NCBI GenBank assembly: GCA_964474445.1
Contig: CAYYSJ010000006.1
Span: 14,213 to 78,212, forward strand
Source: an uncultured Gammaproteobacteria bacterium
GTDB lineage: Bacteria > Patescibacteriota > Microgenomatia > Levybacterales > UBA12049
Direction of reading: 5' to 3'
DNA: 64,000 bases
Shown here: in pieces, positions 2,242 through 41,848 of the stretch
How the letters are laid out: every line of letters starts with the position of its first letter
Numbering within the stretch: the stretch's first letter is position 1
Made by a program: the position numbers and the translations under genes
Notes under the pieces: generated by a model
The model's input: the letters and a program-made list of their open reading frames with translations, nothing else
Database searches by the model: none
Told to the model about the DNA's origin: nothing

Positions 2242-2336
2242 AGCTCCTCCTATTATGACAAAAAGGCAAAAGAAAGCAAATCCACACTGCTTTTTTGCTT
2301 GACAATCAAGGAAAAATTAACCAAACTAGACATAGC

Positions 2337-4022
2337 ATGAAATTTCTCCGTTTATTTCTTCCAAAAACAGTGTTGAAATATTCCCCTTCCATTATATTTG
2401 GATTGGTAATTCTTTTTTCAGTAATTATGCCAAGTTTTGCACAACGAGACTATACCATGCCCAGTACCGAGACAAACGTACCTCAAAACCTTCATACTTT
2501 GACACAAGGGTTACTCCTTGATCTTCTATCTGCAGCGACTTGCCAACTTGGTGGTGTGGACTTTATGACACCAAACCATAAATGTCTTGTTTATAACTCT
2601 CAAGGTCGACTAAGCTATGCAGATAACAGTTCAGGCGTGGTTGGTTTTCTCACCAATGCAATCCAAATCACCTATACGCCACCACTTCATACCTCCTATT
2701 ATGTGGCATATCTTAAAAATAATTTTGGTCTTGTGAAATCAGCTAATGCAGCAGGAAACAGCGGATTTGATCAACTGCAGCCCCTTACGAAGATTTGGTT
2801 AATATTCCGTAATCTCACATACCTTCTATATGTGATTATTTTTGTTGTTATTGGTTTTGCCATTATGCTTCGAGCGAAAATTGATCCCCGAACAGTTATG
2901 ACCATAGAAAATCAAATACCCAAACTCATTGTTAGCATTGTTCTGATCACTTTCTCCTTCGCTATAGCAGGCCTTCTAATTGATTTCCTTTGGGTGCTCA
3001 TGTATCTTGTCGTTAATGTTTTTGCCGCAGTAGACCCTAATTTACTGCCCGGAAATATTATTAGCGGCATAAGAGATAACCCAATTGGCGTCTATGGGAG
3101 AATTCAAGATGGATCCGTGTTTGGCCTCGCATGGCAAGTTGCAGGAGCATTAAATGACATGCTCAATGTAATCATAGGGAATGCTCTTAGTGCGCAGCTT
3201 GGATCAATACCAGTGGGCGGCCTTTTGTCAAAGATACTTGCCATCCTACCGCCATTTATTATTACTGCAACACTCCCGTGTGTTCCTTCAGCACTGCTAG
3301 GACTTATTCCTGGCTCTAACACTGATTTTGGGAAATGTATTGATGGGAATATGACTGCACAGCTCTCCTTTCTTGGAGCAATTGTTGCTTACCTTATTGT
3401 CCTTGTTGCTATGGTCGTTGCACTCTTTAAAATTTGGTTTACCCTTATTCAATCTTATGCAATGTTTCTCATTCTTGTTGCAACAGGACCGTTATTTATT
3501 TTGTCTGGAGTACTCCCTGGAAGTAAAGTGACATTTGAATGGTGGTTAAGACAACTCCTAGCCTACCTGTCATCCTTTATTGTTACCCTTGGTATTCTTC
3601 TTTTAGGAAAAGTTCTTATGGACGCTTTTGGCAACAGTACCAATGCGTTTGGCCCTCCTCTTATCGGAGGACAAATTGGACAAGTAGCAACAAGTACTCT
3701 TGGCGCAATTATTGGATTTGCAACATTTCTTCTTGTGCCACAAGCACTGACAATGGCCCGGGATGCAATCGGTGCAACACCTATTAAATATCTGCAGGGG
3801 ATTGGAGAAGGACTTGGTGCAGGAACGAAATTTGTTGGTGGAGTTGCTGGTGCAGGATTCAGGAGAGCATTCCACGACAGGAATCTCCAAACTGGGCAGG
3901 GAGAGGGATTTGGTACTCAATTATTGTTGGGACGAATTGACGAAGCGGGGACCTGGAGTGGCAAGTCATGGCAAGGATTTTTACGAAGAATGGCATATGG
4001 CAAGATGAAGGGAATGAAGTGA
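2337..4022 (+). CDS. Polytopic membrane protein, candidate VirB6/TrbL-like T4SS channel component
   Basis: N-terminal signal/TM (MKFLRLFLPKTVLKYSPSIIFGLVILFSVIMPSFAQ), many hydrophobic helices, Gly-rich C-terminus; sits in the T4SS-like cluster. ATG at 2337 preferred over the track's TTG at 2295. Confidence 0.45.
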   Translation: MKFLRLFLPKTVLKYSPSIIFGLVILFSVIMPSFAQRDYTMPSTETNVPQNLHTLTQGLLLDLLSAATCQLGGVDFMTPNHKCLVYNSQGRLSYADNSSGVVGFLTNAIQITYTPPLHTSYYVAYLKNNFGLVKSANAAGNSGFDQLQPLTKIWLIFRNLTYLLYVIIFVVIGFAIMLRAKIDPRTVMTIENQIPKLIVSIVLITFSFAIAGLLIDFLWVLMYLVVNVFAAVDPNLLPGNIISGIRDNPIGVYGRIQDGSVFGLAWQVAGALNDMLNVIIGNALSAQLGSIPVGGLLSKILAILPPFIITATLPCVPSALLGLIPGSNTDFGKCIDGNMTAQLSFLGAIVAYLIVLVAMVVALFKIWFTLIQSYAMFLILVATGPLFILSGVLPGSKVTFEWWLRQLLAYLSSFIVTLGILLLGKVLMDAFGNSTNAFGPPLIGGQIGQVATSTLGAIIGFATFLLVPQALTMARDAIGATPIKYLQGIGEGLGAGTKFVGGVAGAGFRRAFHDRNLQTGQGEGFGTQLLLGRIDEAGTWSGKSWQGFLRRMAYGKMKGMK

Positions 4023-4031
4023 TAGATACTT

Positions 4032-7000
4032 TTATCCTCCAACTTTCAAGCCGCTAAATATCATTTTGAAAAAGGTTCCAAATAACTCTCGAGTTATGTC
4101 TGCCGCAAATCCCACAGTATCTCCCCCATACTCTCCGGCGTAGAGTCTCCACCAAGGATTATTAAACCAGAGCAAGTATCTTCTTATTTTACCTGTATCT
4201 TCTAATAAGCCCAATTTGGCTATTCTGTCCCATTCGTCTATTGTAAAAAAGTCGCGCAAAATCTCAACTTCTTCCCCGTTAAAAGCAACCGATCGTGTCA
4301 TGCTATTAAATAATCCTTGCAGCATTTCTATTTCATTTGCACCGTAATATTTTGCAATCGCTCCTTTTGCACGCCATTGTCTATGAAATCGGATTTGTTC
4401 AGCAATAATATATGCTAAAAGGTTTCGTGCCATACCTGTTTTTTTCCAAGCCTCATCCTGTGTCTTTGAACCAGTATCTGTTTCTACTTCAAATCCATAC
4501 ATTTTCATGTCTTGCACTGTTTTCCCAAACATAAGATCACGCAAGGACTGTGTTGTCATCTTTACTGACCTGTCAACCTTACCTCGATAACCAGGCTGAG
4601 ATGTGTATGTCCAGGTTCGAAACTGTGCTTCAAAATTAGGAGCTTGCAAGTCAAGCATGTATCGAATCGGTTTCCAGAATTTATCAATGAAATCCCAAAA
4701 TGCCGAGGTATCAACGGTTAATAGACCGGTTCGCGGATCTGGTGAAACAATTTTATTAAACTCAATCTCAATTTTATTAAGCATCTTAAAGACAGCAAAA
4801 GCGTTACTTAAGTGATCTCCGTAAAATTGAGACATGGAATTCTCGTAGAAATCAAAAGAAGCAATATCTCCATCTAAATTCATATTGTCTCCTGCACCTC
4901 CCTGAAGGATCTCCCGAAGAGTAGTTCCTTTACCCATATTTCCATATCCACTTTCTCCCTGCTTTTGCACTCTCATGCCTTCATAAAAAGTAAAACTAAT
5001 TTTTTTAATGCCATTTATCGTAAAGACATTCCCGTATGCATTCTTGCCTTCCACTTGTCCCTCTCTATATCTCCTAATATTCATTAATTTGGACCAGGCG
5101 TTAAATCCAATACCAATGACGTCATTTTTTGCAGTACTGCCAAAAATATATGCCAAGTCATACGCATGCATATCAGCATACTTTGCCTCAAAAGCTGACA
5201 ACTTGAGCTGTTTGACCATGGCTGCTCGAAGAGCATCTCTCACTAATGCTCTTGATCCTCCAACCTCCTTGATAGAGCCAAATATATTAAGAAAAATCGC
5301 ATCATTTGAATCCCAGCTTTGTTTTGAGAAAGAAATTGCAAAGTCCTCCAACGACTTTCTCCCCTCTACAAAATCCTTAAATACCCCATTACTTACAAGC
5401 TCCGATGTCATGCCATATCCTTTTCCTACCATTGTATAAAGGAATTCTCTTCTCAAATCTTGAGAGTTCACTCGGGATTTTCTTTCGAGTGTTAGTGCGT
5501 TAAGTTCATTTAATTGTCTTTGAAAGGTCTCTTTCTTTCCAGAATCTGTTGATTGAGAAATATCCTTAGCAAGATCTTCTCGTATTCGAGCGAGGACACG
5601 TGTATAGTCTTCTTGAGAAATTCCCCATTCAACAAACTTTGAGGGTTCCTTTTGCTTTGGATCTCCTTCAAGACCTTTTTTATCTAACAGCAGAATATCC
5701 AACACATCCACTTTCTCCCAGTCTTGTCTTTCTCTAAATGCACCTTTATTTTCTCCCTCTTTCTCTTGGATAAATATTTTATTTAGTTCTTCTGTTAGTT
5801 TTTTTGCCATGCCAAATTGATCAGCGTATTTTTTGTCAAGTGTAATACGGATAACTTCACGGTAAAACTCTTTTGCCCCCTCAGTCCCAAGTGATTTTCT
5901 AAAAAGATTTTCGTACTCTTTTTCTTTTCCTTGCTCATCAACGCCTTTTATTCGAGCTCCCTGGTTAACCTCTGCCATATAGTCGTATGCATTTAACAAG
6001 CGCTGAACTGCTTTTCCAACGGTTCCCTGAGAAGTATAATCGTTATTCTCAACCTGCCTATCAATTTCTCCTTTCCCATTATGTGTTTGTTTATCAGTGC
6101 TTCCATAGCGAAGAATCTTTAGCAAACGATCACGTCCCTCAGTTAATGCATTTGGCTTACTATAAATACTTCCCAAGACTTCTGATAATTTGTCCTCGGA
6201 TCCCATTGCCGCCCGAAAGTCAACAGCAGAGTTGTGAATAAAGTCAGCAAGATAAGGCTCATAAAGGATATCGTCCCGAAGCCTGTCATATGCAGCATCT
6301 TGACGAGAAACCTCACGAACTTTGTAAACTTGAACGTCCTTAGGTTTAGAAGGATCATTAGGATCATATTCTTCTGAGACTTGAATATTAGGAGCAGGGA
6401 CCTCTGCGACAACCCTTAGCTCTCCTCTCTCGTTTTCACTTAAAAGCCCAACCAAGACACGTCCTGCACCATCTTTACGCACTTTACCATTCTCGTCTGT
6501 TAGGACAACACCTTCTCTGTTATACCTTTCCAAATCAACTCGCCAAACTCCATCTTCTTTTTTTACTTCCTGATAAATTTCCGTAGTTCGTTTACCCCAA
6601 TATGCATCAGTACCGTATAATTCAATTAAGTAATATGCACGAGTGGCAGTTGGAAGCTGAATATCCTGCAATAGGTTAATTTTGCTTGTTGCGTTTAAGT
6701 CATGATAAAACCATACTCTTCTTCTCACCCACAAAAGTAAGTTGTCTTTATTTACACGCTTCTCTCCAGTTTCAGAATCAATAGTAATAAGCGCATGTTT
6801 TCCACCAACGGAGAATTCATCAGACACCACATCGGAAATTCTTTCAACTAAATCTTCCAAATTTTTGGGAGTACTATAAAAATCCATCTGCTCATCTCGT
6901 AACTTTTCGTACCCGTAATACTTTTTCAGTGTATTCCCCAACTCTAAAGTCATGAGTCGAGCTGCGTTTTTGTCCTGTGCGGCAACTGTTGTTATCTGTT

Positions 7001-7490
7001 CAAGGCGTTTTTTCAGCTCTACCATCTCTTGTTTAAGACCAGGCGTTGTTTCTAATGCTCTTTTTGCTTTCCAACCCATACCAATAATACCCTCTATCAA
7101 GTTGGTAAACTGTACATCCGATTTTCCTGATTCACGCAATTCTTTCAATAAACTCTCGAGATGTTCTCGAGGGGTTTTAGGCTTTGTAGTTTCATCTTTA
7201 TCTATCTGTGACTGCGCCTCTTTTGCTTTTGCTTTCATGTTATCCCGAAAGTTAGCAGGAGCGGGCTCAATGGTCGATCGTACGTTTTCTCTATTGGACT
7301 CTGTCCCCATTTCTTCTAATACTTGGGCCACTTGTTCTGGAGTTAACCTTTGTCCATTATTAAAGAATCCGCCTTCCGAAATTGGCTGCCCTTGTGCTTC
7401 GGGAGAGGATCCTCCACCATCTATTGCCATACCTTCAGCATAGCTATTTTGAACTCTTGATGTCAATGTTGGGTCAAATTCGTAGTTCAT
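4032..7490 (-). CDS. Large hypothetical protein (about 1150 aa), no TM, no recognisable catalytic motif
   Basis: Long uninterrupted ORF; first ATG at 7490 (track TTG at 7499); no Walker motifs seen; lies between the VirB6-like gene and the pilin-like genes. Confidence 0.6.
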   Translation of the reverse strand: MNYEFDPTLTSRVQNSYAEGMAIDGGGSSPEAQGQPISEGGFFNNGQRLTPEQVAQVLEEMGTESNRENVRSTIEPAPANFRDNMKAKAKEAQSQIDKDETTKPKTPREHLESLLKELRESGKSDVQFTNLIEGIIGMGWKAKRALETTPGLKQEMVELKKRLEQITTVAAQDKNAARLMTLELGNTLKKYYGYEKLRDEQMDFYSTPKNLEDLVERISDVVSDEFSVGGKHALITIDSETGEKRVNKDNLLLWVRRRVWFYHDLNATSKINLLQDIQLPTATRAYYLIELYGTDAYWGKRTTEIYQEVKKEDGVWRVDLERYNREGVVLTDENGKVRKDGAGRVLVGLLSENERGELRVVAEVPAPNIQVSEEYDPNDPSKPKDVQVYKVREVSRQDAAYDRLRDDILYEPYLADFIHNSAVDFRAAMGSEDKLSEVLGSIYSKPNALTEGRDRLLKILRYGSTDKQTHNGKGEIDRQVENNDYTSQGTVGKAVQRLLNAYDYMAEVNQGARIKGVDEQGKEKEYENLFRKSLGTEGAKEFYREVIRITLDKKYADQFGMAKKLTEELNKIFIQEKEGENKGAFRERQDWEKVDVLDILLLDKKGLEGDPKQKEPSKFVEWGISQEDYTRVLARIREDLAKDISQSTDSGKKETFQRQLNELNALTLERKSRVNSQDLRREFLYTMVGKGYGMTSELVSNGVFKDFVEGRKSLEDFAISFSKQSWDSNDAIFLNIFGSIKEVGGSRALVRDALRAAMVKQLKLSAFEAKYADMHAYDLAYIFGSTAKNDVIGIGFNAWSKLMNIRRYREGQVEGKNAYGNVFTINGIKKISFTFYEGMRVQKQGESGYGNMGKGTTLREILQGGAGDNMNLDGDIASFDFYENSMSQFYGDHLSNAFAVFKMLNKIEIEFNKIVSPDPRTGLLTVDTSAFWDFIDKFWKPIRYMLDLQAPNFEAQFRTWTYTSQPGYRGKVDRSVKMTTQSLRDLMFGKTVQDMKMYGFEVETDTGSKTQDEAWKKTGMARNLLAYIIAEQIRFHRQWRAKGAIAKYYGANEIEMLQGLFNSMTRSVAFNGEEVEILRDFFTIDEWDRIAKLGLLEDTGKIRRYLLWFNNPWWRLYAGEYGGDTVGFAADITRELFGTFFKMIFSGLKVGG

Positions 7491-7558
7491 ATGAAGCAAG
7501 TTTACTTCCTAAAAGCACACTTGCCTTGATATTTACCTTACAGAATTCTTTTGATACG

Positions 7559-8902
7559 ATGATACATATGGATTCCGACCATCTTGAATCACTCTATCCA
7601 ACAGCAAGTAGACAAGAAGAAATCACTGAAATTCTTTCCTACGTAAAAGAAGGACAATCTTGTCAATTGATTGCTCTGCCAGGTGTTGGACGAGGAAACT
7701 TACTAAACCTTCTTGCATACAATAGAGATCTTCGAATACTCCATTTAGGAGAGGAGGTATACCTCAAATATCATTTTGTGTTGGCTAATTTTTCTGAGGT
7801 AAAGAATAGATCACTTCTAGACATTATGAAATTTCTTTTCCTCGAACTTTCTTCGTCCTTGCATGAGAGGAAAAGAGACGAGGAATTTTTAGAGGTTGAT
7901 CAAATGTTTAAAGAAGCAATATCTTATAACGATGAATTAGTGCTTTTTCAAGCACTCAAAAAAGCAATTGAGTACTTAACGCTTGAGAAAGATATAACAG
8001 TTGTTTTTCTTCTTGAAAGATTTGAAACGTATGTACCACTTGTTACACAGGATTTTTTTAACAATTTACGGAGTATCCGAAATCGTGCAAAATATAAATT
8101 CTCTGTTGTCTTCTCTGTCACAAGACCGTTAGAGGAAATTCTAGAGCCAGCTCTTCTTGCAGATTTCTACGAATTTGTCGTAGATCATAACATCTATTTG
8201 CCTCTTTTAGATATGCCTGGTATCAATTTCCGTATCAGTTATTTAGAAAAACTGACCAGAAAAAAAATACCAGAAGAAATTACAAAAAAAATTTTAGAAT
8301 TTACTGCTGGACATGGGAAATTAACAAGACTCACCTTGGAAATTGCATGCTCAGATCGTACTGAAGAGCGACAAGTAAACATAATAACACTACTTTCCCA
8401 CAAAACCATTCGAGGAGCTCTATTTGAAATTTGGAATTTTCTTACTCCCGATGAACAAAACGATGTCTTTTCACTAGTAAAAGGAGACTCTGTTTCAAAT
8501 GCTTTTCTAGAACATGTAGGACTTCTCCAAAACGGACATGTCACAATTCCTCTTTTTGCAGATTTCGTTAAGAATTATTTGTCCGAAGAAGTTGCACAAG
8601 AACAACATATCTTCTTTAACCCTGAGACAAATAGTATTACCAAAGGGCATCAGATCCTTTCCGACATTTTAACAGGATCAGAATTTAAACTACTTCGTTT
8701 ACTGCTTGAACATATAGACACAATTATTGACCGCGATCGAATTATCCAAACAGTGTGGACAGATACAAAATCTCAAACAGGAGTTTCGGATCAGGCAGTT
8801 GACCAACTCATATTCAGACTAAGAAAAAAAATTGAAGACGATCCGAATAATCCTGTACATATTCAGACAGTGAAAGGTCGCGGTGTTAAATTTACTCCAT
8901 AA
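7559..8902 (+). CDS. Transcriptional regulator: N-terminal NTPase-like domain plus C-terminal OmpR/PhoB-type winged-helix DNA-binding domain, no receiver domain
   Basis: C-terminus LLRLLLEHIDTIIDRDRIIQTVWTD...AVDQLIFRLRKKIEDDPNNPVHIQTVKGRGVKFTP matches the trans_reg_C pattern; N-terminal LIALPGVGRGNLLNLL is P-loop-like; first ATG at 7559 (track TTG 7382 would overlap the upstream gene). Confidence 0.6.
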   Translation: MIHMDSDHLESLYPTASRQEEITEILSYVKEGQSCQLIALPGVGRGNLLNLLAYNRDLRILHLGEEVYLKYHFVLANFSEVKNRSLLDIMKFLFLELSSSLHERKRDEEFLEVDQMFKEAISYNDELVLFQALKKAIEYLTLEKDITVVFLLERFETYVPLVTQDFFNNLRSIRNRAKYKFSVVFSVTRPLEEILEPALLADFYEFVVDHNIYLPLLDMPGINFRISYLEKLTRKKIPEEITKKILEFTAGHGKLTRLTLEIACSDRTEERQVNIITLLSHKTIRGALFEIWNFLTPDEQNDVFSLVKGDSVSNAFLEHVGLLQNGHVTIPLFADFVKNYLSEEVAQEQHIFFNPETNSITKGHQILSDILTGSEFKLLRLLLEHIDTIIDRDRIIQTVWTDTKSQTGVSDQAVDQLIFRLRKKIEDDPNNPVHIQTVKGRGVKFTP

Positions 8903-8945
8903 CTTTTCTTGACAAAGAAATGCTCACTGTGGGACGATAAACCTA

Positions 8946-9545
8946 ATGAAAAAGCTTTTCCTTTCCCTTGCCATGCTTCCTCTCTTTTTCGTACTTCCTC
9001 AACTGTCATTTGCCGGAGGATGCACTGATAATAGAAGCATCTGTGTAAATCAATCTCTTCCTTCAGGAGTCAAGCCAGGTGATGTTTGCGGAAACTCGAC
9101 GAATTATGTTTATGGTTCAACGTCAGTTTGCTTTGGCGGAGCTTCTCCATGTATTCCCCGTTGCGGACTTGGGGATTGGTGGTGCTGCGATCCAAAACCT
9201 GGATATACTCCGGTAAACAAGGGGCCAGCTGCTCCTCCATGCAACCAATCAGATAATGGTAATTGCCTTTCTGTTGAAACAGGTGTTGGAACGATATCCA
9301 CACAACCCGCAAACTTTGTTAATAGTATTTACAGGATTCTTTTGGGGCTTGCTGGCGGAGTAGCACTACTTCTTATTATTGGAGCTGGATATCAAATGAT
9401 GACATCGCAGGGAAACCCAGAGAAAGTCAAAGAAGCACGAGAACGTCTTACCTCTGCAATAGTCGGACTGCTTTTTATCATTTTTTCATTTACAATCTTG
9501 CAAATAATAGGAGTGCAAATTCTACAAATACCTGGCTTTAAATAA
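8946..9545 (+). CDS. VirB2/TrbC-like pilin-family protein with an N-terminal Cys-rich (10 Cys) extracellular extension
   Basis: Signal peptide MKKLFLSLAMLPLFFVLPQLSFA; Cys-rich segment; C-terminal core AGYQMMTSQGNPEKVKEARERLTSAIVGLLFIIFSF shared with the three downstream paralogues. Confidence 0.5.
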   Translation: MKKLFLSLAMLPLFFVLPQLSFAGGCTDNRSICVNQSLPSGVKPGDVCGNSTNYVYGSTSVCFGGASPCIPRCGLGDWWCCDPKPGYTPVNKGPAAPPCNQSDNGNCLSVETGVGTISTQPANFVNSIYRILLGLAGGVALLLIIGAGYQMMTSQGNPEKVKEARERLTSAIVGLLFIIFSFTILQIIGVQILQIPGFK

Positions 9546-9547
9546 TT

Positions 9548-9889
9548 ATGAAATTACTTGCATTGACAGTTGGTGGAGGTTCATCAGGAGAACCAACATT
9601 TACAATACAACCGCCCTCTGATCTTCTAGATGTTAGCAATCTTACATTAGATAGACTTATTCATAACGGTATTACTTTGCTTCTTTATGTAATTATTCTT
9701 CTTAGCTTTATTTTTGTTGTTATTGCTGGACTCAAATGGATACTTTCCCAAGGAGATAAGAAAGGGGTTGAAGAAGCGCGAAAAACATTAACATTTGCGA
9801 TAGGAGGACTCGTTCTCGCTTTTCTTTCATTCTTTATTATTAATCTTATTGGATATGCACTCGGTGGCATCCCCTTACTTGGCAGGTAG
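9548..9889 (+). CDS. VirB2/TrbC-like pilin-family small membrane protein (paralogue 2)
   Basis: Core GLKWILSQGDKKGVEEARKTLTFAIGGLVLAFLSFFII; two hydrophobic helices flanking a charged loop. Confidence 0.55.
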   Translation: MKLLALTVGGGSSGEPTFTIQPPSDLLDVSNLTLDRLIHNGITLLLYVIILLSFIFVVIAGLKWILSQGDKKGVEEARKTLTFAIGGLVLAFLSFFIINLIGYALGGIPLLGR

Positions 9890-9934
9890 ACACTTGACAA
9901 GGAGTAAAAATACCCATACGATAAAGATAATTCT

Positions 9935-10330
9935 ATGAAGCACTTAGCAACGTTTTTCCTTCCTTTTGTATCATTGGTCATTGTGCCACAAGCCTTTGCA
10001 GATGTTACTGTTAACACATGCCCCCCTGGAAACTTTAATGCGTTATGTTTAAATGCAACTGATTTAGGGAGAGTTATTGGGAATGGAATTAACTTTTTGT
10101 TTGTTGTTGCAGCACTTCTAGCATTTGGATTTCTTGTTCTAGGAGGAATTAAATGGCTTACTTCTCAAGGAGAAAAAGAAGGGATTAATAAAGCTCGAGA
10201 GACAATTGTTGCAGCAGTGGTGGGATTGATTATAATTTTTCTCTCCTACCTCATTGTTAACTTTATCCTTAATCTCTTTGTTGGAGTAAGTCTTTTCAAT
10301 CTTACTCTCCCAACTATTACCGGACATTAA
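9935..10330 (+). CDS. VirB2/TrbC-like pilin-family small membrane protein (paralogue 3)
   Basis: Signal peptide ...VPQAFA; core GIKWLTSQGEKEGINKARETIVAAVVGLIIIFLSYLIV. Confidence 0.55.
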   Translation: MKHLATFFLPFVSLVIVPQAFADVTVNTCPPGNFNALCLNATDLGRVIGNGINFLFVVAALLAFGFLVLGGIKWLTSQGEKEGINKARETIVAAVVGLIIIFLSYLIVNFILNLFVGVSLFNLTLPTITGH

Positions 10331-10351
10331 TCTTTGTAGCAACTAGCTCCA

Positions 10352-10690
10352 TTGCCTTTTTTTATACTCTTTGTTACGCTTTATCATATGTGGGGAACTT
10401 GTATAGTAAATGGCATTCCAACAATACAATGTATTTTCCCTCTCGTAAACATTATTATTAATGCAGCTCTTGGCCTTGTCGGCACTGTTGCAGTGCTCCT
10501 TATCCTTTATGCGTCTATCAAATACATTACTTCTGGAGGCGGAAAAAGCGCAGAAGAGGCAAAAAATATTCTTACCTATGCAATCGTTGGTCTTATTGTT
10601 GTTTTGGGTTCATTTTTTATTGTCAGGCTTATCGCTGGATTCACAGGTGTAGAATGCATCAATACATTTAGTTTCTTCAGTTGTCAATGA
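10352..10690 (+). CDS. VirB2/TrbC-like pilin-family small membrane protein (paralogue 4); start uncertain (TTG 10352 or ATG 10388)
   Basis: Core IKYITSGGGKSAEEAKNILTYAIVGLIVVLGSFFIV. Confidence 0.5.
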   Translation: MPFFILFVTLYHMWGTCIVNGIPTIQCIFPLVNIIINAALGLVGTVAVLLILYASIKYITSGGGKSAEEAKNILTYAIVGLIVVLGSFFIVRLIAGFTGVECINTFSFFSCQ

Positions 10691-11358: not shown

Positions 11359-11483
11359 ACTCTTAGTATACTACCAACATTATTTAAGAAGGTAGGTTTC
11401 TGTTTTCACAAGATTTTTATGCCTAAGGCTGATCTATTTTGTAGGGGTTGCAATGAGATTTTTCACATAGTACGCTTTTGTAT

Positions 11484-12629
11484 ATGGATAATCACCCAAT
11501 CCCCCAAGATGTTACAAACTTCCAATTTCGTCTTATCGGAGATATGACAATAAAGCAGTTTGCTTACCTTGCTGCAGGTGTTGGTTCTGCTTGGATTCTC
11601 TTTGTTCTGCCTCTATCTTTTTTTATAAAATTTCCGCTCGTTGCTTTTTTAGGAGGGGGAGGTATTTTTTTGGCGTTTGTGCCTATTGAGGGGAGACCAG
11701 CAGATGCTATGATGTTATTCTTTTTAAAATCTCTTTTCTCCCCTACTCAATATATTTATCGACAATCTGGTGGTTCTTTTCCAACAACACCTGCTCCTCA
11801 GGACGAGAAGACTACGGTAAAACAGGAAGAGACAAAAGAGGAGAAAAAAGATGAGAAGGATGGAAAAATTCATTTAGAAGCATCGCCTACTCCTCTTGCA
11901 CAAACTGTGCTGCAACCATCACCGGTTGTTGAAGAAAAGAAAGAAGCTATAGAACAACCAGTAGCGACACCTCTTTCTGATGTTTCAACAGAAGAGACAT
12001 CGGCACAAGAGCTTGGGAAAGAAGCTGCAGAACTGGTAAAAGAACTTCAGGACGCAAAGAAGGAAGAGATACAAGCACAAGAAGGATCAAAAGAAGCAAC
12101 TGTTGCTCATGAAAAAGTGGCACAACTTGAAGATGAACTACAAACAATTCTTAAACAAAAACAAGAATTAGAAAAACAGCTTCTTGAACTAGAGAAGCAA
12201 CTAGCAGAAAAGAAACAACAGGTATTTACACCAAGCGCAGCACAAGATCAACCACAACAGACATCTCACGTTATTAAAGTCGCACCCAACCAACAAGCAT
12301 CAGTTGGTACGCCACTCACCAACGATGTCCCTAATCTGATCTCAGGTGTTGTAAAAGATCCTCGGGGGAATGTTTTGCCAAATATTCTTATCGAAGTAAA
12401 AGACAAGGATGGCAACCCCGTCCGTGCATTTAAGACAAATGGACTTGGTCAATTTGCTTCAGCAACCCCTGTTATCAGTGGCGTATATACCATTACCTTT
12501 GAAGACCCACAAGGCAAGCATCGCTTCGATGCTGTTGAGATAACTGCAAACGGGACAGTACTCCCACAACTGGAAGTTATCTCTGTTGACCAACGAGAAG
12601 AACTTCGACGTGAGTTATTTGGAGGATAA
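11484..12629 (+). CDS. PrgI/VirB3-like T4SS membrane protein with a long coiled-coil and a C-terminal beta-sandwich-like extension
   Basis: N-terminal FQFRLIGDMTIKQFAYLAAGVGSAWILFVLPL...GRPADAMMLFFLKSL resembles a PrgI-family TM hairpin; then an E/K/Q-rich coiled coil; C-terminus GVVKDPRGNVLPNILIEVKDKDGNPVRAFKTNGLGQFA. ATG at 11484. Confidence 0.5.
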   Translation: MDNHPIPQDVTNFQFRLIGDMTIKQFAYLAAGVGSAWILFVLPLSFFIKFPLVAFLGGGGIFLAFVPIEGRPADAMMLFFLKSLFSPTQYIYRQSGGSFPTTPAPQDEKTTVKQEETKEEKKDEKDGKIHLEASPTPLAQTVLQPSPVVEEKKEAIEQPVATPLSDVSTEETSAQELGKEAAELVKELQDAKKEEIQAQEGSKEATVAHEKVAQLEDELQTILKQKQELEKQLLELEKQLAEKKQQVFTPSAAQDQPQQTSHVIKVAPNQQASVGTPLTNDVPNLISGVVKDPRGNVLPNILIEVKDKDGNPVRAFKTNGLGQFASATPVISGVYTITFEDPQGKHRFDAVEITANGTVLPQLEVISVDQREELRRELFGG

Positions 12630-12631
12630 TC

Positions 12632-13288
12632 ATGAAACAACCTGCCCGACAAGCATCCACGCAACATTTTACAGAAGTCTTGGATATACACGATGAGATC
12701 GTTCTTCTCTCTGGAGGGAATGCGTGTATCATTGTGGAGGTTCAAGCTGTTAATTTTGCATTATTATCTGCTGAAGAACAGGATGCAAAAGTTTTTGGGT
12801 ACGCAGCACTACTTAATTCTCTTTCTTTCCCTGTTCAGATACTTATGAGAAGTAAAAAAATTGATATTATGCCATATATCAATTCACTTGCTGATGCGGC
12901 AACAAAAACAACGAATCCGAAACTTGCTGAGAATATTAATAAATATAAAGAATTTGTGAAACAATTGGTAACAACTGCAGTTGTTCTCGATAAAAAGTTC
13001 TATATGGTTCTCTCCTATTCTATGCTTGAGGAAGGAGTTGGAAGTATTACCAAGATTGCAAAAAACACTCCTTCTGATATGGATGATTTTTTTGTGAAAG
13101 CAAAGGCAGCCTTGCATACGAAAGCAGAGTCGCTCCTCTCTCAAATAGATAGAATGGCTCTTCGTGCAAAGATAGTAGAAAAAGATGCTCTTATTAACTT
13201 ATTTCACGATATGTTTAATGAGGAAGGAAGCCGTGCAAAGATACATGAAAGCCATGCTGTAACGGCAACCAAAGGAGGTGTTCACTAA
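12632..13288 (+). CDS. Hypothetical protein translationally coupled to VirB4; resembles a VirB4 N-terminal domain
   Basis: RBS GGAGGA then ATG; stop overlaps the VirB4 start (TAATG); segment ILLSGGNACIIVEVQAVNFALLSAEEQDAKVFGYAALLNSLSFPVQILMRS. Confidence 0.4.
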   Translation: MKQPARQASTQHFTEVLDIHDEIVLLSGGNACIIVEVQAVNFALLSAEEQDAKVFGYAALLNSLSFPVQILMRSKKIDIMPYINSLADAATKTTNPKLAENINKYKEFVKQLVTTAVVLDKKFYMVLSYSMLEEGVGSITKIAKNTPSDMDDFFVKAKAALHTKAESLLSQIDRMALRAKIVEKDALINLFHDMFNEEGSRAKIHESHAVTATKGGVH

Positions 13289-15114
13289 TGTTTGGGAAGA
13301 AAAACCCTTCTGCTCAACAAGTAGAGCAACCTCAACAAAATCTGTTAGAGAAAGGCATGCAGTCAATCCCTGATATTATTGCACCCTCATCTGTTGAGGT
13401 AGATTTTAAGTCAATCCGTGTTGGGGAACGATTTTATCGGACCTTTTTTATTGTTGGCTATCCTCGTTATGTATCAACAGGGTGGCTTTCCCCTGTCATT
13501 GATTTTGACCACTCTCTTGACATTAGCATGTTTATTTACCCAGTCTTTACTGATGACGTCTTATCTAATTTGAAGAGGAAAATTGCCGAAATGGAGGCAA
13601 CAATTTCTTCCGATGAAGAGAAGGGCAAGCCAGTAAATCCAAAAATTAACGCAGCGCTGAATGATGCATATGGACTCCAAAACGAATTAGCAAAAGGCAT
13701 TGAACGTTTTTTCCAATTTAGTCTCTATGTCGCTCTCTCTTCGGATGACAAAAAGGATTTAGAGGAAACGACAAAAAAACTTACCAGTACTCTCGCTTCG
13801 CTTTTAGTAACACCGAAGATAGCAACGCTTCAGATGGAAGACGGGTTTAAGACAATACTCCCTATTGGGCAAGATAGACTTTTCATCACGAGAAATATGG
13901 ATACATCCTCACTTGCTTCAACATTCCCCTTTACCTCCGCAACCCTAACACAAGATAAAGGGATTCTTTACGGAGTTAATCAACAAAACGGATCCTTAGT
14001 CGTTTTTGACAGATATTCTTTAGAAAACGCTAACAGTGTTATTTTTGGAAAATCAGGTTCAGGAAAATCATTCATGATTAAGCTTGAAATTATGCGCCAA
14101 TTCATGTTTGGGACAGAGGTTATTGTTATTGATCCTGAAAACGAATACGGAAAATTAGCACAAACGTTGGGAGGGGAATATCTGAACTTTTCAGCAATCT
14201 CTCCTATAAAGATAAACCCTTTTGATTTGGCAGGCGTCTATGAAGAAGGAGAGAACGAACTTGGAACAAAAATTATTTCACTTCGAGCGCTATTGAAAAT
14301 AATGCTTGGCAACATCACCCCAGCGGAGGATGCAATCTTAGATAGAGCCCTGGTAGCAACTTACTCTGAAAAGGGCATTACAGCAGATCCTGCAACGCAA
14401 TCTAAAACTCCACCTATTTTGGAGGATTTATACAAAGTACTCAAAACGATGCAAGATCAGATAGCTCAAGGACTAGCACTTCGTTTGGAGAAATATGTTA
14501 CCGGGAGTCTTGCAGGACTTTTCAACCAACAATCAAATTTTGACATTAAAAATCCACTCACAGTCTTTGCTTTAAGAGATCTAGAGGATGAAGTACGACC
14601 AATTGCCATGCATATTATCCTAGACTTTGTCTGGACACGTGTTCGAAAGACTTTGAAGAAGCGTCTTCTTATCGTGGATGAAGCATGGTATTTAATGAAA
14701 CATGAAGATTCCGCATCATTTATTTACGGCATTGCTAAACGCGCTCGTAAATACTATCTAGGACTCACTACCGCGACCCAGGACGTGCAGGATTTCCTTT
14801 CGAGTGATTATGGTCATGCTATCCTTTCGAACTCCTCTGTTCAAATTCTACTCAAGCAGAGTACTTCAGAAATAGAAACAGTTGCGACCACTTTTTATCT
14901 TTCAGAGGGTGAAAGGCAAATGCTTATTTCAGCTGGTGTTGGCCAAGGACTTTTTTTTGCTGGACAAAGTCATGTTGCCATACAAGTTGTTGCAGCACCA
15001 TTTGAGCATGAGATCATCACATCAAATCCTGCAGAACTACAAAGGCAACAAGAACAAACTTCTAATCAAACACAACCGGTTACAACTCCGCCTAATGCAA
15101 GAGGCATTCAATAA
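13288..15114 (+). CDS. VirB4/TrbE/TraC-family T4SS ATPase, Gram-positive (PrgJ/TrsE) type
   Basis: Walker A GKSGSGKSFMIK, Walker B RLLIVDEAWYLM, DPENEYGKLA, ATTFYLSEGE; RBS AAAGGAGGTG upstream. Confidence 0.85.
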   Translation: MFGKKNPSAQQVEQPQQNLLEKGMQSIPDIIAPSSVEVDFKSIRVGERFYRTFFIVGYPRYVSTGWLSPVIDFDHSLDISMFIYPVFTDDVLSNLKRKIAEMEATISSDEEKGKPVNPKINAALNDAYGLQNELAKGIERFFQFSLYVALSSDDKKDLEETTKKLTSTLASLLVTPKIATLQMEDGFKTILPIGQDRLFITRNMDTSSLASTFPFTSATLTQDKGILYGVNQQNGSLVVFDRYSLENANSVIFGKSGSGKSFMIKLEIMRQFMFGTEVIVIDPENEYGKLAQTLGGEYLNFSAISPIKINPFDLAGVYEEGENELGTKIISLRALLKIMLGNITPAEDAILDRALVATYSEKGITADPATQSKTPPILEDLYKVLKTMQDQIAQGLALRLEKYVTGSLAGLFNQQSNFDIKNPLTVFALRDLEDEVRPIAMHIILDFVWTRVRKTLKKRLLIVDEAWYLMKHEDSASFIYGIAKRARKYYLGLTTATQDVQDFLSSDYGHAILSNSSVQILLKQSTSEIETVATTFYLSEGERQMLISAGVGQGLFFAGQSHVAIQVVAAPFEHEIITSNPAELQRQQEQTSNQTQPVTTPPNARGIQ

Positions 15115-15131
15115 CGATATACTAATTGTAT

Positions 15132-16946: not shown

Positions 16947-16948
16947 CT

Positions 16949-17686: not shown

Positions 17687-17687
17687 T

Positions 17688-18794: not shown

Positions 18795-18866
18795 ATATAT
18801 ATTTTTGTAGTTGTAGTAGTGTATCTGGAAATGTGGAAAAAAGCAAGAAGATAGCTTCAAAAATCC

Positions 18867-18945
18867 TGTGGATAACGTGTTGAAAACTTTTGGGATAACA
18901 TGTTGAAAAGATATTTTTTCTCAACTTTCCCTCTTATTATCCACG
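18867..18945. promoter_or_regulatory. DnaA boxes in the dnaA-dnaN intergenic region
   Basis: TGTGGATAA at 18867-18875 and TTATCCACG at 18937-18945. Confidence 0.5.
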
Positions 18946-33142: not shown

Positions 33143-33238
33143 AGAGTATATAGTACTCCCCAACTTGACGCAAGAAAAACATTTACAAACACAAATACCT
33201 GACAAAACTCATGGCAAAAAAAAGAAAAAAGAGCTATA

Positions 33239-34572: not shown

Positions 34573-34601
34573 TTGACAAGATAATGCGTGAGTGGTATAG
34601 T
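34573..34601 (+). promoter_or_regulatory. Sigma-70-type promoter upstream of valS
   Basis: TTGACA (34573-34578), 17-bp spacer, TATAGT (34596-34601). Confidence 0.5.
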
Positions 34602-34679
34602 GCAGTATATGAATAGAAAAAACTCAGTTGTCACTATCGTCCCTCTTTCTTGAGGCGGATTGACCGTGACACGCTCGAT

Positions 34680-34708
34680 ACCGCCGGAAGGCGGTTTTTC
34701 TTTATTTG
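34680..34708 (+). terminator. Leader terminator/attenuator hairpin between the valS promoter and start codon
   Basis: ACCGCC-GGAA-GGCGGT hairpin with GNRA loop, then TTTTTCTTTATTT; upstream GGCGG (34654-34658) could pair with the 5-prime arm. Confidence 0.5.
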
Positions 34709-34735
34709 AAAGGTTAAACAGGGTATAATAAGCAT

Positions 34736-40958: not shown

Positions 40959-40983
40959 CCTCATCAACTGTATAAACATTTCT

Positions 40984-41624: not shown

Positions 41625-41848
41625 GGAAAAAAGTAAATCTTTTTTATGAAAAATCTCCGCCGCATTTTTGAGAGCAAAAAAGCTTTTGTAGTATATCTTA
41701 AAATACATGTGTAAAAACCTGTATATGCTTAAAAAGCACACTGCATTACGAAGGCTGTATTACAGAATTTTTATGATTTTCTTTCAATGTGTCAATATAA
41801 ATCTTACGTTCTTCTTGCACAGCATTTATAGCATAAGTATTACTGCCT

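What the first reader, a model, noticed from the sequence alone, without database searches (positions are those of the whole stretch)
7559..8902. Two paralogous regulators (7559..8902 and 33239..34561) pair an NTPase-like N-domain with an OmpR-type winged helix but lack a receiver domain
Both proteins end in a clear OmpR/PhoB trans_reg_C domain (...RLRKKIEDDPNNPVHIQTVKGRGVKFTP and ...RVRQKLKKRRSDVEIITVRTRGYKLV). Instead of a receiver domain they carry about 350 aa with a P-loop-like segment (LPGVGRGNLLNLL and GMKRVGISNFLRFF). This is the reverse of SARP/AfsR architecture, where the DNA-binding domain is N-terminal. One copy sits directly upstream of the pilin array and is a plausible dedicated regulator of the T4SS-like cluster. 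The only histidine kinase in the window (41849..43009) has no cognate response regulator nearby.
Basis: partly seen in the sequence, partly recalled or inferred. Interest (0 to 1): 0.6.

Follow-up and report, generated by a model that had tools for sequence, protein, structure and literature searches.

The report
Pilin-linked regulators with dead ATPase domain
Two related DNA-binding proteins in this candidate-phyla-radiation (CPR, Patescibacteria) genome join an OmpR-type DNA-binding domain to a switch-ATPase-like domain whose catalytic residues are lost, and one of them is always encoded beside the secretion-system pilin genes, so it is the best candidate regulator of that system.

Summary
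Genes A (7568..8902) and B (33251..34561) are full-length paralogues (23% identity, E 3e-31). Each ends in a Pfam Trans_reg_C winged helix, and neither has a receiver domain.

The N-terminal ~335 aa form a confident AAA+/STAND-like module: core, lid and winged helix. Its relatives with intact motifs match Pfam nSTAND1 and carry the same C-terminal winged helix.

In A and B the catalytic motifs are systematically lost:
- Walker A Lys is Arg in 153 of 168 A-type proteins and Ile in 190 of 194 B-type proteins.
- Walker B Glu is Arg in 93-97% of both types.
- The STAND sensor-I Arg is kept.

Both types are conserved, mostly unnamed families of Patescibacteria (mainly Levybacteria/Microgenomatia) and co-occur on the same contigs.

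A lies next to the T4SS pilin array in 53 of 53 fully flanked loci. It is co-directional in 43 and inverted in 10.

B upstream regions carry TGAC direct repeats phased at 11 bp, like a PhoB box. This is a candidate operator.

I found no DNA motif shared by the pilin promoter and the A promoter, so regulation of the pilins rests on synteny alone.

Verdict: a new variant of STAND/AAA+-type transcription factors. It is undescribed in the literature I could search and moderately interesting.

The parts
7568..8902 (+). Gene A (444 aa): degenerate STAND/AAA+ module, winged-helix-like domain, linker helix, then OmpR/PhoB winged helix
   Evidence: ORF. Start fixed by orthologue N-termini and by the 100% identical P0001. 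AF2 model pLDDT 92.3, pTM 0.79. Foldseek finds ORC4/Orc1/Cdc6/PAB2304 for the N-part and RstA/YycF/PhoB/OmpR/ToxR DNA-binding domains for the C-part.
7673..7699 (+). A: degenerate Walker A loop ALPGVGRGN (Lys replaced by Arg, Ser/Thr by Gly)
   Evidence: Alignment columns. Among 168 A-type proteins the Lys position is R in 153, K in 13, Q in 2.
8003..8026 (+). A: Walker B strand VFLLERFE. The acidic Asp position is kept (Glu). The catalytic Glu is replaced by Arg154, which is invariant in the 61-sequence alignment
   Evidence: The Walker B Glu position is R in 156 of 168 A-type proteins. Relatives with intact motifs have hhhhFDEFD.
8123..8125 (+). A: Arg189 after strand beta4 (motif hhhS/T-x-T-R), at the position of the STAND sensor-I arginine; retained
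   Evidence: Nearly invariant, invariant. R in 158 of 168 A-type and 184 of 194 B-type proteins. Assigning it as sensor I is my inference from the known hhhTTR motif of STAND NTPases.
8603..8899 (+). A: OmpR/PhoB-type winged-helix DNA-binding domain (beta-sheet platform plus wHTH; recognition helix GVSDQAVDQLIFRLRKKI)
   Evidence: Pfam PF00486, 66.9 bits. PDB profile hits WalR, RegX3, PhoB and others, E down to 2e-14. Foldseek TM-score relative to target (TMt) 0.7-0.82 to solved DNA-binding domains.
7525..7542 (+). Conserved element CTTGATATTTACCTTACA in the A promoter, lying between A and the divergent large ORF. It is the -35 region plus a conserved spacer and is a tentative autoregulatory operator
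   Evidence: Present in 35 orthologous upstream regions with consensus CTTGATATTTACCTnACAAAAA..TTACAATA. Unique in the window. Excess of 4-mer self-matches at lag 11, z 7.1, in 32 sequences. It is weak in the window's own subgroup and absent in L005.
8909..8938 (+). Pilin-array promoter just after the A stop codon: TTGACA, 18 nt, GACGAT, then 7 nt to ATG 8946 (leaderless or nearly so)
   Evidence: Sequence. Family consensus CTTGCAw, 17/18 nt, TACGATAAAA, 2-4 nt, GTG/ATG across about 40 loci.
8946..10690 (+). Four tandem T4SS pilin genes (VirB2-like, PF18895), the conserved neighbours of A
   Evidence: Pfam T4SS_pilin, E 3e-10 to 3e-5. Same arrangement in L001 and L003 and in 53 of 53 fully flanked loci.
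4032..7499 (-). Large ORF (1155 aa, no Pfam or PADLOC match) transcribed divergently from A. It is the neighbour on the other side of A in many but not all loci
   Evidence: A homologue is adjacent in 25 of the A-type loci. Equivalent large unannotated ORFs occur in L001 and L003.
33251..34561 (+). Gene B (436 aa): paralogue of A with the same architecture. Walker A is GMKRVGISN (Lys to Ile). Walker B is FLLRFD (Asp lost, Glu to Arg)
   Evidence: Lys to Ile in 190 of 194 B-type proteins. Glu to Arg in 189 of 194.
34322..34549 (+). B: Trans_reg_C winged helix (recognition helix GVSDWSVDRLVARVRQKL)
   Evidence: Pfam PF00486, 59.1 bits, E 4.4e-16.
33165..33207 (+). Candidate B operator between gdh (-) and B (+): TTGAC (33165-33169), two degenerate repeats, then CCTGACAAAA (33198-33207). 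It lies just upstream of the B promoter (-35 TGGCAA 33212-33217, -10 TATAAT 33235-33240)
   Evidence: Sequence. In 69 unique B upstream regions, TGAC pairs at lags 11/22/33 number 13/9/8 against fewer than 0.1 expected, and 4-mer self-matches at lag 11 have z 6.5. 22 of 69 sequences are phased, against 0 of 470 random windows. Stereotyped element GCTTGACttttttCCTGACgccaaCCTGACAA. In the window itself the two good repeats are 34 bp apart, not 33.
34676..34700 (+). GC-rich hairpin plus T-run between B and valS. It is a terminator-like site, so B is probably not co-transcribed with valS
   Evidence: Sequence, fold. valS has its own -10 TATAAT (34724-34729), 6 nt before its ATG.

Best explanation
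A and B are one-component transcription factors. In each, an OmpR/PhoB winged helix is driven by a STAND/AAA+-type oligomerisation module (nucleotide-binding-like core, helical lid, winged helix) instead of a phospho-receiver.

The module descends from nSTAND1-like STAND NTPases that already carried the same C-terminal winged helix. In A and B it has lost the catalytic Walker A Lys and Walker B Glu, so it most likely cannot hydrolyse ATP. It keeps the glycine-rich loop and the sensor-I Arg. I therefore infer that it still serves as a ligand- or partner-controlled assembly scaffold. That scaffold would line up several winged helices head to tail on direct repeats spaced about 11 bp apart, much as DnaA or Orc1/Cdc6 place their C-terminal DNA-binding domains.

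- A is the dedicated regulator of the T4SS pilin locus: its own gene, the pilin array and perhaps the divergent large ORF.
- B binds a TGACA repeat array next to its own promoter. This implies autoregulation, and possibly control of neighbouring carbon-metabolism genes.

Shown here: the architecture, the fold, the motif losses, the conservation, the synteny and the phased repeats.
Inferred: DNA binding to those repeats, oligomerisation, loss of hydrolysis and the regulatory targets.
For: Architecture and fold:
- Trans_reg_C matches. PDB profile hits fall only on OmpR-family DNA-binding domains.
- Full-length AF2 model pLDDT 92.3. N-domain model pLDDT 92.3, pTM 0.90.
- Foldseek hits to ORC4, Orc1/Cdc6, RFC, MuB, CED-4 and PAB2304.

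Descent from active STAND + wHTH proteins:
- The N-domain profile finds 2045 clusters. Members at E 1e-36 to 1e-45 carry intact GxxGxGKS and hhhhFDEFD motifs.
- Those members match Pfam nSTAND1/AAA_16/AAA_22 and, in most cases, a C-terminal Trans_reg_C.

Systematic motif loss: counts over 425 proteins.

Conservation and co-occurrence:
- More than 1200 homologues of each type.
- The same contigs carry both types.

Synteny:
- A is adjacent to pilins in 53 of 53 fully flanked loci, in two orientations.
- This T4SS type is essential for epibiotic growth in a cultured Saccharibacterium (PMC10633639).

Operator evidence for B:
- TGAC repeats at lags 11, 22 and 33.
- Stereotyped 3-5 repeat arrays occur almost only in B loci.

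Operator evidence for A: a conserved promoter element with the same 12 + 11 bp repeat geometry.
Against: - No experiment exists, and no binding site is demonstrated.
- The pilin promoter looks like a self-sufficient sigma-70 promoter. It shares no element with the A promoter beyond the hexamers.
- The A 'operator' coincides with the -35 and -10 boxes. The lag-11 match is missing in the window's own subgroup, and the element is absent in the closest relative L005, where the gene is inverted.
- In the window the B repeats are degenerate: two good copies, 34 bp apart.
- Only 30 of 49 B loci keep the aaRS neighbour, and the upstream genes vary, so B's targets are unknown.
- Lys to Arg in A is conservative and 13 of 168 A-type proteins keep Lys, so nucleotide binding, or even slow hydrolysis, cannot be excluded.
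- The related upstream sequences are not independent samples.
Confidence: 0.6

Rival explanations
1. A and B are still nucleotide-driven STAND switches. ATP/ADP exchange, not mere scaffolding, gates DNA binding, as in MalT or AfsR. The Arg substitutions would only slow hydrolysis and lock a long-lived ATP state.
For: - The glycine-rich loop is kept (G44 invariant), as is the sensor-I Arg.
- The A-type Lys to Arg change is conservative, and 13 of 168 A-type proteins keep Lys.
- Relatives with intact motifs and the same architecture exist.
Against: - B-type proteins have Ile at the Lys position (190 of 194) and have lost the Walker B Asp (187 of 194).
- Both types carry Arg where the catalytic Glu should be. 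That side chain would occupy or repel the Mg-phosphate site.
- The GxP motif of the lid is lost: GGHGKL in A and GGHVQY in B, against GGHPGL in relatives with intact motifs.
Confidence: 0.2
2. They are remnants or members of an nSTAND1-type conflict (anti-phage or abortive-infection) system rather than housekeeping regulators. The winged helix would sense invader DNA.
For: - Distant relatives occur in conflict-system architectures: P0412 is nSTAND1 + Trans_reg_C + TCAD9 + TIR, and P0406 is Pkinase + nSTAND1.
- P0400 sits next to a Response_reg-TCAD9-APH gene.
- Inactive STAND modules have been proposed as nucleic-acid sensors (PMC8195603).
Against: - No effector domain is fused or adjacent.
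- There is no PADLOC match.
- Both genes are conserved with stable synteny across a whole lineage, next to the T4SS and housekeeping genes. Patchy, mobile defence genes behave differently.
- No MoxR or vWA partners are present.
Confidence: 0.07
3. They are initiator-like (ORC/DnaA-like) origin or chromosome-organising proteins. They would bind repeat arrays near oriC rather than act as gene-specific transcription factors.
For: - The best fold matches are ORC4, Orc1/Cdc6 and MuB.
- A lies about 10 kb from dnaN and dnaA.
- Phased repeat arrays resemble initiator box arrays.
Against: - The linkage is to the pilin array, not to dnaA. A canonical DnaA is present.
- B lies about 13 kb on the other side of dnaA, and its arrays sit at promoters of B and, once, of an aldolase gene.
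- The DNA-binding domain is of the OmpR transcription-factor type.
Confidence: 0.05
4. The N-domain is a degenerate receiver domain, or the winged-helix assignment is spurious.
For: None found.
Against: - There is no Response_reg match in Pfam or NCBIfam or with a receiver HMM.
- The confident model has a five-stranded AAA+ core, a lid and a winged helix spanning 335 aa.
- Trans_reg_C scores are more than twice the gathering cut-off.
Confidence: 0.01

Closest known systems
Uncharacterised nSTAND1 (PF20703) + Trans_reg_C proteins (e.g. P0371, P0379, P0390, P0394, P0400, P0403)
   Same: Same length (about 450 aa) and same two-part architecture. The N-domains are clearly homologous (E 1e-36 to 1e-45 to the A/B N-domain profile).
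   Different: Those proteins keep GxxGxGKS, hhhhFDEFD and GGHPGL. At least one lies in a TCAD9 signalling/conflict context. A and B have lost the catalytic residues and sit beside the T4SS or housekeeping genes of Patescibacteria.
MalT / LAL-type STAND transcription activators
   Same: [quoted passage not shown] Multimers bind repeated sites (my knowledge of the family).
   Different: MalT uses a LuxR-type HTH, has a large C-terminal sensor (SUPR/TPR-like) region and needs ATP. A and B have an OmpR winged helix, no sensor repeats and degenerate ATP motifs.
AfsR / large SARP regulators
   Same: An OmpR-type winged helix is combined with a STAND (NB-ARC) ATPase in one polypeptide (PMC10936776, listed).
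   Different: The domain order is reversed: SARP wHTH + BTAD at the N-terminus, then NOD and TPR. A and B have no BTAD and no TPR, their ATPase-like module belongs to a different STAND clade, and the ATP site is inactivated.
Archaeal Orc1/Cdc6 and bacterial DnaA
   Same: An AAA+ core and lid are followed by a C-terminal DNA-binding (winged-helix or HTH) domain. These are the best fold matches. They bind arrays of repeated boxes as oligomers.
   Different: They are replication initiators with functional ATP sites. Sequence similarity is negligible (10-17% identity in the structural alignments). The DNA-binding domain of A and B is of the OmpR/PhoB type.
OmpR/PhoB response regulators
   Same: The C-terminal domain is a bona fide member (Pfam, PDB profile and fold). 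The candidate operators are direct repeats with an 11-bp period, like pho boxes.
   Different: There is no receiver domain and no phospho-acceptor Asp. Control must come from the STAND-like module, not from a histidine kinase.
iSTAND / iSTAND2 inactive STAND modules of MoxR-vWA ternary conflict systems (PMC7159879, PMC8195603)
   Same: They set a precedent for catalytically inactive STAND modules retained as sensor or assembly units.
   Different: Those come with MoxR and vWA partners and N-terminal effector or adaptor domains, in multicellular bacteria. A and B have none of these and carry a transcription-factor domain.

Membership tests
OmpR/PhoB winged-helix DNA-binding domain (Trans_reg_C, PF00486) | Profile match above the curated threshold | tested here: met
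   A 66.9 bits and B 59.1 bits against a cut-off of 26.2. All 61 sampled family members match.
OmpR/PhoB winged-helix DNA-binding domain (Trans_reg_C, PF00486) | Fold: N-terminal beta-sheet platform, three-helix wHTH and C-terminal hairpin wing | tested here: met
   The AF2 model of A has strands at 351-362, helices at 373-425 and a hairpin at 435-445. Foldseek TMt is 0.69-0.82 with rmsd 1.8-3.4 Å to the DNA-binding domains of RstA, YycF, PhoB, OmpR, VicR and ToxR. B was not modelled.
OmpR/PhoB winged-helix DNA-binding domain (Trans_reg_C, PF00486) | Binds tandem direct repeats about one helical turn apart | tested here: inconclusive
   Phased TGAC repeats lie upstream of B genes. A weaker 12 + 11 bp repeat pattern lies in A promoters. 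Binding itself cannot be tested with these tools.
Two-component response regulator | N-terminal receiver (CheY-like) domain with a phospho-acceptor Asp | tested here: not met
   No Response_reg hit appears. NCBIfam response-regulator models align only to the C-terminal ~100 aa. A receiver HMM finds nothing in the window. The N-domain fold is AAA+/STAND.
STAND NTPases (nSTAND1-like clade) | Sequence homology to the clade | tested here: inconclusive
   A and B themselves give only weak hits: AAA_35 in 10 of 61 members, nSTAND1 in 2 of 61, AAA_16 in 4 of 61. Their N-domain profile, however, retrieves proteins at E 1e-36 to 1e-45 that score 24-33 bits on nSTAND1, around the 27.1-bit cut-off. Membership is therefore transitive.
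STAND NTPases (nSTAND1-like clade) | Walker A GxxxxGK[ST] | tested here: not met
   The Lys position is Arg in 153 of 168 A-type and Ile in 190 of 194 B-type proteins.
STAND NTPases (nSTAND1-like clade) | Walker B hhhhD[DE] with a catalytic acidic residue | tested here: not met
   The second acidic position is Arg in 156 of 168 A-type and 189 of 194 B-type proteins. The first Asp is deleted in 187 of 194 B-type proteins.
STAND NTPases (nSTAND1-like clade) | Sensor-I arginine after strand beta4 (hhhTTR-like) | tested here: met
   Arg in 158 of 168 A-type and 184 of 194 B-type proteins. Equating this Arg with sensor I rests on my knowledge of the family.
STAND NTPases (nSTAND1-like clade) | Three-part module: nucleotide-binding domain, helical lid, winged helix | tested here: met
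   In the model the core spans about residues 20-215, the lid 219-264 and a small helical/winged-helix domain 275-330. Matches include CED-4 (TM-score relative to query, TMq, 0.47) and PAB2304 (TMq 0.51).
STAND NTPases (nSTAND1-like clade) | C-terminal sensor repeats (TPR, WD40, LRR or similar) | tested here: not met
   Only a linker helix and the winged helix follow the module. No repeat families appear in Pfam.
SARP / AfsR family | N-terminal OmpR-type wHTH followed by BTAD | tested here: not met
   The wHTH is C-terminal. No BTAD or TPR match appears.
ORC/Cdc6/DnaA initiator AAA+ proteins | [quoted passage not shown] | tested here: met
   The top Foldseek hits are ORC4, Orc1 and Cdc6 at E 1e-6 to 1e-4, but TM-scores are only 0.3-0.47. 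This is a resemblance of fold and layout only.
ORC/Cdc6/DnaA initiator AAA+ proteins | Functional ATP site and a role at the replication origin | tested here: not met
   The ATP motifs are degenerate. A canonical dnaA lies at 18937..20289. Synteny is with the pilins, not with the origin. The role at the origin itself was not tested.
iSTAND ternary conflict systems | Adjacent MoxR AAA+ and vWA genes, with N-terminal effector or adaptor domains | tested here: not met
   The neighbours are T4SS, aaRS, Ruv and metabolic genes. There is no PADLOC hit.

The most novel reading that the evidence does not exclude
A and B are a lineage-specific pair of nucleotide-independent, initiator-like transcription factors. 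They polymerise, possibly as A-B hetero-oligomers, into short helical filaments on 11-bp-phased repeat arrays. A would be the master switch that turns on the essential T4SS pilus of ultrasmall epibiotic bacteria in response to a host-derived ligand or partner sensed by the dead ATPase pocket. That would be a new signalling logic, replacing two-component systems in these reduced genomes.
Probability: 0.15. Interest if true: 0.8.

Novelty: new variant of a known kind. Interest (0 to 1): 0.55.

Why it matters
Patescibacteria make up a large share of bacterial diversity and live attached to host cells. Their unusual pilin-bearing T4SS is essential for epibiotic growth in the one genetically tractable species (PMC10633639). 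Neither of the two T4SS papers I read names a regulator for it (PMC10633639; the comparative survey PMC12102498).

Here is a conserved DNA-binding protein that is always encoded at the pilin array in Levybacteria/Microgenomatia. That gives a concrete handle on how these cells control the apparatus.

More generally, the pair shows a STAND/AAA+ switch module that lost its catalytic residues but was kept under strong selection as the input domain of an OmpR-type transcription factor. It would be a pseudo-ATPase one-component regulator. The phased-repeat operators give directly testable binding sites.

Tried and rejected
1. Degenerate receiver domain: rejected.
2. Direct Pfam or NCBIfam naming of the N-domain: nothing above threshold. 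Only faint DnaA, AAA_35 and nSTAND1 hits appeared.
3. PDB profile search of the full-length alignment: it hit only OmpR-family DNA-binding domains and nothing for the N-domain.
5. A DNA motif shared by the A promoter, the pilin promoter and other cluster genes:
   - The A element occurs once in the window.
   - A looser -35-like pattern is not enriched.
   - The pilin promoter shows no phased repeats.
6. Other phased TGAC arrays in the window, as a possible B regulon: none in intergenic DNA beyond B's own upstream region, and pairs are not enriched overall (8 against 13.9 expected).
7. Defence-system membership: no PADLOC hits.
8. Literature: no paper in the library describes this architecture or a regulator of the Patescibacteria T4SS. 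Southlakia ML1 has no such gene at its pilin array.
9. Taxon names of the relatives with intact motifs could not be obtained.
10. An Rfam search of the B-valS spacer found nothing.
Full report
**1. What is in the sequence**

Both ORFs named in the finding exist on the + strand.
- Orthologue N-termini (M-[DE]-x-x-H-[LF]-E-S-L-Y-P for A; M-D-x-x-V-x-E-x-x-Y-P for B) and database proteins that are 100% identical place the starts at ATG 7568 (444 aa, P0001) and ATG 33251 (436 aa, P0121). That is 3 and 4 codons downstream of the coordinates in the finding.
- The ATG at 33239 overlaps the -10 box of the B promoter.
- The two proteins align end to end at 23% identity, E 3e-31, so they are paralogues.

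**2. C-terminal domain**

Both proteins match Pfam Trans_reg_C at more than twice the gathering score (66.9 and 59.1 bits against 26.2).
- A family profile hits only OmpR/PhoB-family DNA-binding domains in the PDB (WalR, RegX3, YycF, PhoB, ToxR, CadC and others).
- The AlphaFold model of A superposes on solved DNA-binding domains with a TM-score relative to the target (TMt) of 0.69-0.82.
- The winged-helix assignment therefore passes. B was not modelled.

**3. N-terminal domain**

It is not a receiver.
- Pfam and NCBIfam give no receiver match. Response-regulator models align only to the last ~100 residues.
- A receiver HMM finds nothing in any window ORF.

Two models were built: full-length A from a 61-sequence alignment (pLDDT 92.3, pTM 0.79), and the N-domain alone (pLDDT 92.3, pTM 0.90). 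Both show:
- a five-stranded alpha/beta core (about residues 20-215);
- a helical lid (219-264);
- a small winged-helix-like domain (275-330);
- in the full-length model, a linker helix (331-348) and the OmpR-type domain.

Foldseek against the PDB returns AAA+ proteins of the initiator, clamp-loader and STAND kinds: ORC4, Orc1/Cdc6, RFC, MuB, RuvB, CED-4 and the Pyrococcus Walker-type ATPase PAB2304. E-values are 1e-6 to 1e-3, and TM-scores relative to the query (TMq) reach 0.51.

At the sequence level the family gives only weak hits: AAA_35 in 10 of 61 members, and AAA_16, ORC-CDC6-like and nSTAND1 in a few.

**4. Origin and degeneration of the ATPase module**

A profile of the N-domain alone was searched against 1.84 billion cluster representatives. 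It finds 2045 clusters at E <= 1e-3, 1045 at <= 1e-10 and 218 at <= 1e-30.

Members at E 1e-36 to 1e-45 are about 450 aa long.
- They match Pfam nSTAND1/AAA_16/AAA_22 and, in most cases, a C-terminal Trans_reg_C.
- Other relatives fuse the module to a protein kinase (P0406) or to TCAD9 + TIR (P0412).
- One relative (P0400) follows a Response_reg-TCAD9-APH gene.
- These relatives keep Walker A GxxGxGKSN, Walker B hhhhFDEFD and a GGHPGL lid motif.

Motif counts over 425 proteins:

| Position | A-type (n = 168) | B-type (n = 194) | Distant relatives (n = 45) |
|---|---|---|---|
| Walker A Lys | Arg 153, Lys 13, Gln 2 | Ile 190 | Lys 38 |
| Walker B Asp | Asp 115, Glu 51 | deleted in 187 | Asp 40 |
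| Walker B Glu | Arg 156 | Arg 189 | Glu 18, Gln 11, Arg 10 |
| Arg after beta4 | Arg 158 | Arg 184 | variable (Arg 11) |

The Arg after strand beta4 sits where STAND NTPases have their sensor-I Arg; that assignment is my reading of the hhhTTR motif. The last glycine of the P-loop (G44) is invariant.

So A and B are degenerate descendants of an nSTAND1-like STAND + winged-helix protein. Each has its own fixed set of substitutions, which means the pocket is under selection rather than decaying. Loss of hydrolysis is inferred from the known roles of these residues in P-loop NTPases. Residual nucleotide binding, especially in A, is not excluded.

**5. Distribution**

Each paralogue has more than 1200 homologues.
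- They come from Patescibacteria MAGs. Record titles of the genome loci are mostly Candidatus Levybacteria/Levyibacteriota or Microgenomates. The many 'uncultured Gammaproteobacteria' titles are, I infer, placeholder names.
- Both types occur on the same contigs. An example is Ga0209647_1000005, with A at about 123.5 kb and B at about 153 kb.

**6. Context of A**

The window carries a T4SS-like cluster:

| Coordinates | Strand | Gene |
|---|---|---|
| 2295..4022 | + | TrbL/VirB6-like |
| 4032..7499 | - | 1155-aa ORF, no family match |
| 7568..8902 | + | A |
| 8946..10690 | + | four T4SS_pilin genes |
| 11478..12629 | + | PrgI-like |
| 12632..13288 | + | 218-aa ORF, no Pfam hit here; the equivalent gene in L001 is TraC-like |
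| 13288..15114 | + | VirB4 |
| 15126..16946 | + | CHAP hydrolase |
| 17688..18860 | - | dnaN |
| 18937..20289 | - | dnaA |

Among 80 A-type loci from species-representative genomes, all 53 with at least 3 kb on both sides have pilin genes adjacent to A.
- In 43 loci the pilins lie co-directionally downstream.
- In 10 loci the regulator gene alone is inverted, so that it diverges from the pilins. This includes the closest relative, L005.
- The 8 loci without a pilin hit are all truncated.

The pilin array has its own promoter directly after the A stop codon: TTGACA (8909), 18 nt, GACGAT, 7 nt, ATG 8946. The family consensus is CTTGCAw, 17/18 nt, TACGATAAAA, 2-4 nt, start codon. This implies a leaderless mRNA.

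The two T4SS papers I read do not mention a regulator (PMC10633639, PMC12102498). Southlakia ML1 (Saccharimonadia) has no such gene at its pilin array. A is therefore a lineage-specific addition.

**7. Candidate operators**

*B.* Upstream regions of B (positions -140 to -31; 69 unique sequences) show a sharp excess of 4-mer self-matches at lag 11: 96 against 39 expected, z 6.5, with nothing at lag 10 or 12.
- TGAC pairs occur at lags 11, 22 and 33 (13, 9 and 8 pairs, against fewer than 0.1 expected).
- 22 of 69 sequences have a phased pair. The controls are 1 of 69 at off-phase lags, 0 of 470 random windows and 6 of 302 upstream regions of other ORFs.
- The element is stereotyped: GCTTGACttttttCCTGACgccaaCCTGACAA, with spacing 12 + 11.
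- 13 of the 14 arrays of three or more repeats, in 3.2 Mb of fetched DNA, lie in B loci. One five-repeat array precedes a class-II aldolase gene.
- This is the geometry expected for OmpR/PhoB-family proteins (pho-box-like).
- In the window the array lies between gdh (-) and B (+). It runs from TTGAC at 33165 to CCTGACAAAA at 33198-33207, with two degenerate middle repeats, just upstream of the B promoter (TGGCAA, 17 nt, TATAAT, about 10 nt, ATG).

*A.* The A promoter carries a conserved element CTTGATATTTACCTnACA (7525-7542). It is unique in the window and present in 35 orthologous regions.
- Many orthologues read TTGATA-12-TTACA-11-TTACAAT, which is the same 12 + 11 geometry.
- The outer repeats are the -35 and -10 boxes. 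The window's own subgroup lacks the lag-11 match, and L005 lacks the element altogether.
- I therefore treat this as tentative.

No element is shared between the pilin promoter and the A promoter beyond the sigma-70 hexamers.

**8. Context of B**

- 30 of 49 loci have a class-I aminoacyl-tRNA synthetase (valS-like) directly downstream. The upstream genes vary.
- In the window a terminator-like hairpin (34676-34700) and a separate leaderless valS promoter separate B from valS.
- B's targets beyond its own promoter are unknown. The aldolase case and the neighbouring PGK, DeoC, PfkB and GDH genes hint at carbon metabolism.

**9. Interpretation**

The best-supported reading is a pair of one-component transcription factors. 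In each, a catalytically degenerate STAND/AAA+ module replaces the receiver domain as the input and oligomerisation unit for an OmpR-type winged helix.

Arrays of three to five phased repeats fit head-to-tail multimers assembled by such a module. The layout is the one used by DnaA and Orc1/Cdc6.

That A regulates the pilin/T4SS locus rests on invariant synteny in two orientations, not on a demonstrated site.

Rivals:
- an ATP-dependent switch;
- a conflict-system remnant;
- an initiator-like chromosome protein;
- a degenerate receiver.

They are weighed in the Rival explanations section. The last is refuted.

**10. Novelty**

The components and the general idea are known: STAND-regulated transcription factors such as MalT and AfsR, and inactive STAND modules such as iSTAND. 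nSTAND1 + Trans_reg_C proteins also exist in the databases.

Three things appear undescribed in the literature I could search:
- this pair of Patescibacteria families with fixed catalytic substitutions;
- the invariant linkage of A to the T4SS pilin array;
- the phased TGACA operator of B.

I rate it a new variant of a known kind and moderately interesting.

Noticed in passing
window 8909-8946; 33212-33251; 34704-34738; 7490-7505 (- strand): Promoter-like -10 boxes lie only 6-10 nt before the start codons of pilin 1, B, valS and the large divergent ORF. The same holds across dozens of orthologous loci. This suggests that leaderless mRNAs are common in this lineage.
   Followed up: partly
window 34574-34700 (+): Between B and valS lies a strong promoter-like site (TTGACA-17-TATAGT, 34574-34602). 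It is followed by about 95 nt of structured sequence (MFE -30.1 kcal/mol, z -2.3) ending in a GC hairpin and T-run. This could be a small RNA, or simply the B terminator. There is no Rfam match.
   Followed up: partly
window 4032-7499 (-): A 1155-aa ORF with no Pfam or PADLOC match is transcribed divergently from A. Homologues or equivalent large unannotated ORFs (942-1693 aa) flank A in many loci. It may be a T4SS-associated component or substrate.
   Followed up: partly
window 2295-20289: The whole T4SS-like cluster abuts dnaN and dnaA: VirB6-like, pilins, PrgI-like, a TraC-like-position gene, VirB4 and a CHAP hydrolase. This matches the origin-proximal placement reported for Patescibacteria T4SS (PMC12102498).
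   Followed up: partly
window 40958-41849: About 900 bp without any ORF of 60 aa or more lie between ruvB and the cytoplasmic GAF-HisKA-HATPase_c kinase (41849..43009). There is no Rfam hit at gathering thresholds, and no receiver-domain ORF anywhere in the window.
   Followed up: no
L123 3508-3557 (- strand), upstream of the ORF at 2148-3470: A five-copy TCTGACA array with 11/12-bp spacing precedes a class-II fructose-bisphosphate aldolase gene, 1.4 kb from the B gene. It is a possible member of the B regulon.
   Followed up: partly
L009, L013, L018, L019, L024, L025, L032, L035, L102 (flanks of the A or B genes): Small 'four-helix-bundle'-like genes, with short tandem repeats (for example CTAGTCGCTAGTCG... 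and TTTGAATTTTGTAATTT...), are inserted between the regulator genes and their neighbours in several genomes.
   Followed up: no
P0252 (metagenome protein, 416 aa): A B-type N-domain is followed by an S1 RNA-binding domain instead of the winged helix. It is seen on a single contig, so it is either a domain swap or an assembly chimera.
   Followed up: no
P0412 (1784 aa); L165 4205-7392: Relatives of the module with intact motifs occur fused to, or next to, TCAD9, TIR and Response_reg domains. This links the ancestral nSTAND1 + winged-helix protein to signalling or conflict systems outside Patescibacteria.
   Followed up: partly
window 51190-51240 (- strand): A TGAC pair 34 bp apart (TTTTGTGACGCAA...TTTTTGACG) lies in the intergenic region upstream of the ORF at 51275, on the opposite strand. 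It resembles the window's own B element, but it may be chance.
   Followed up: no
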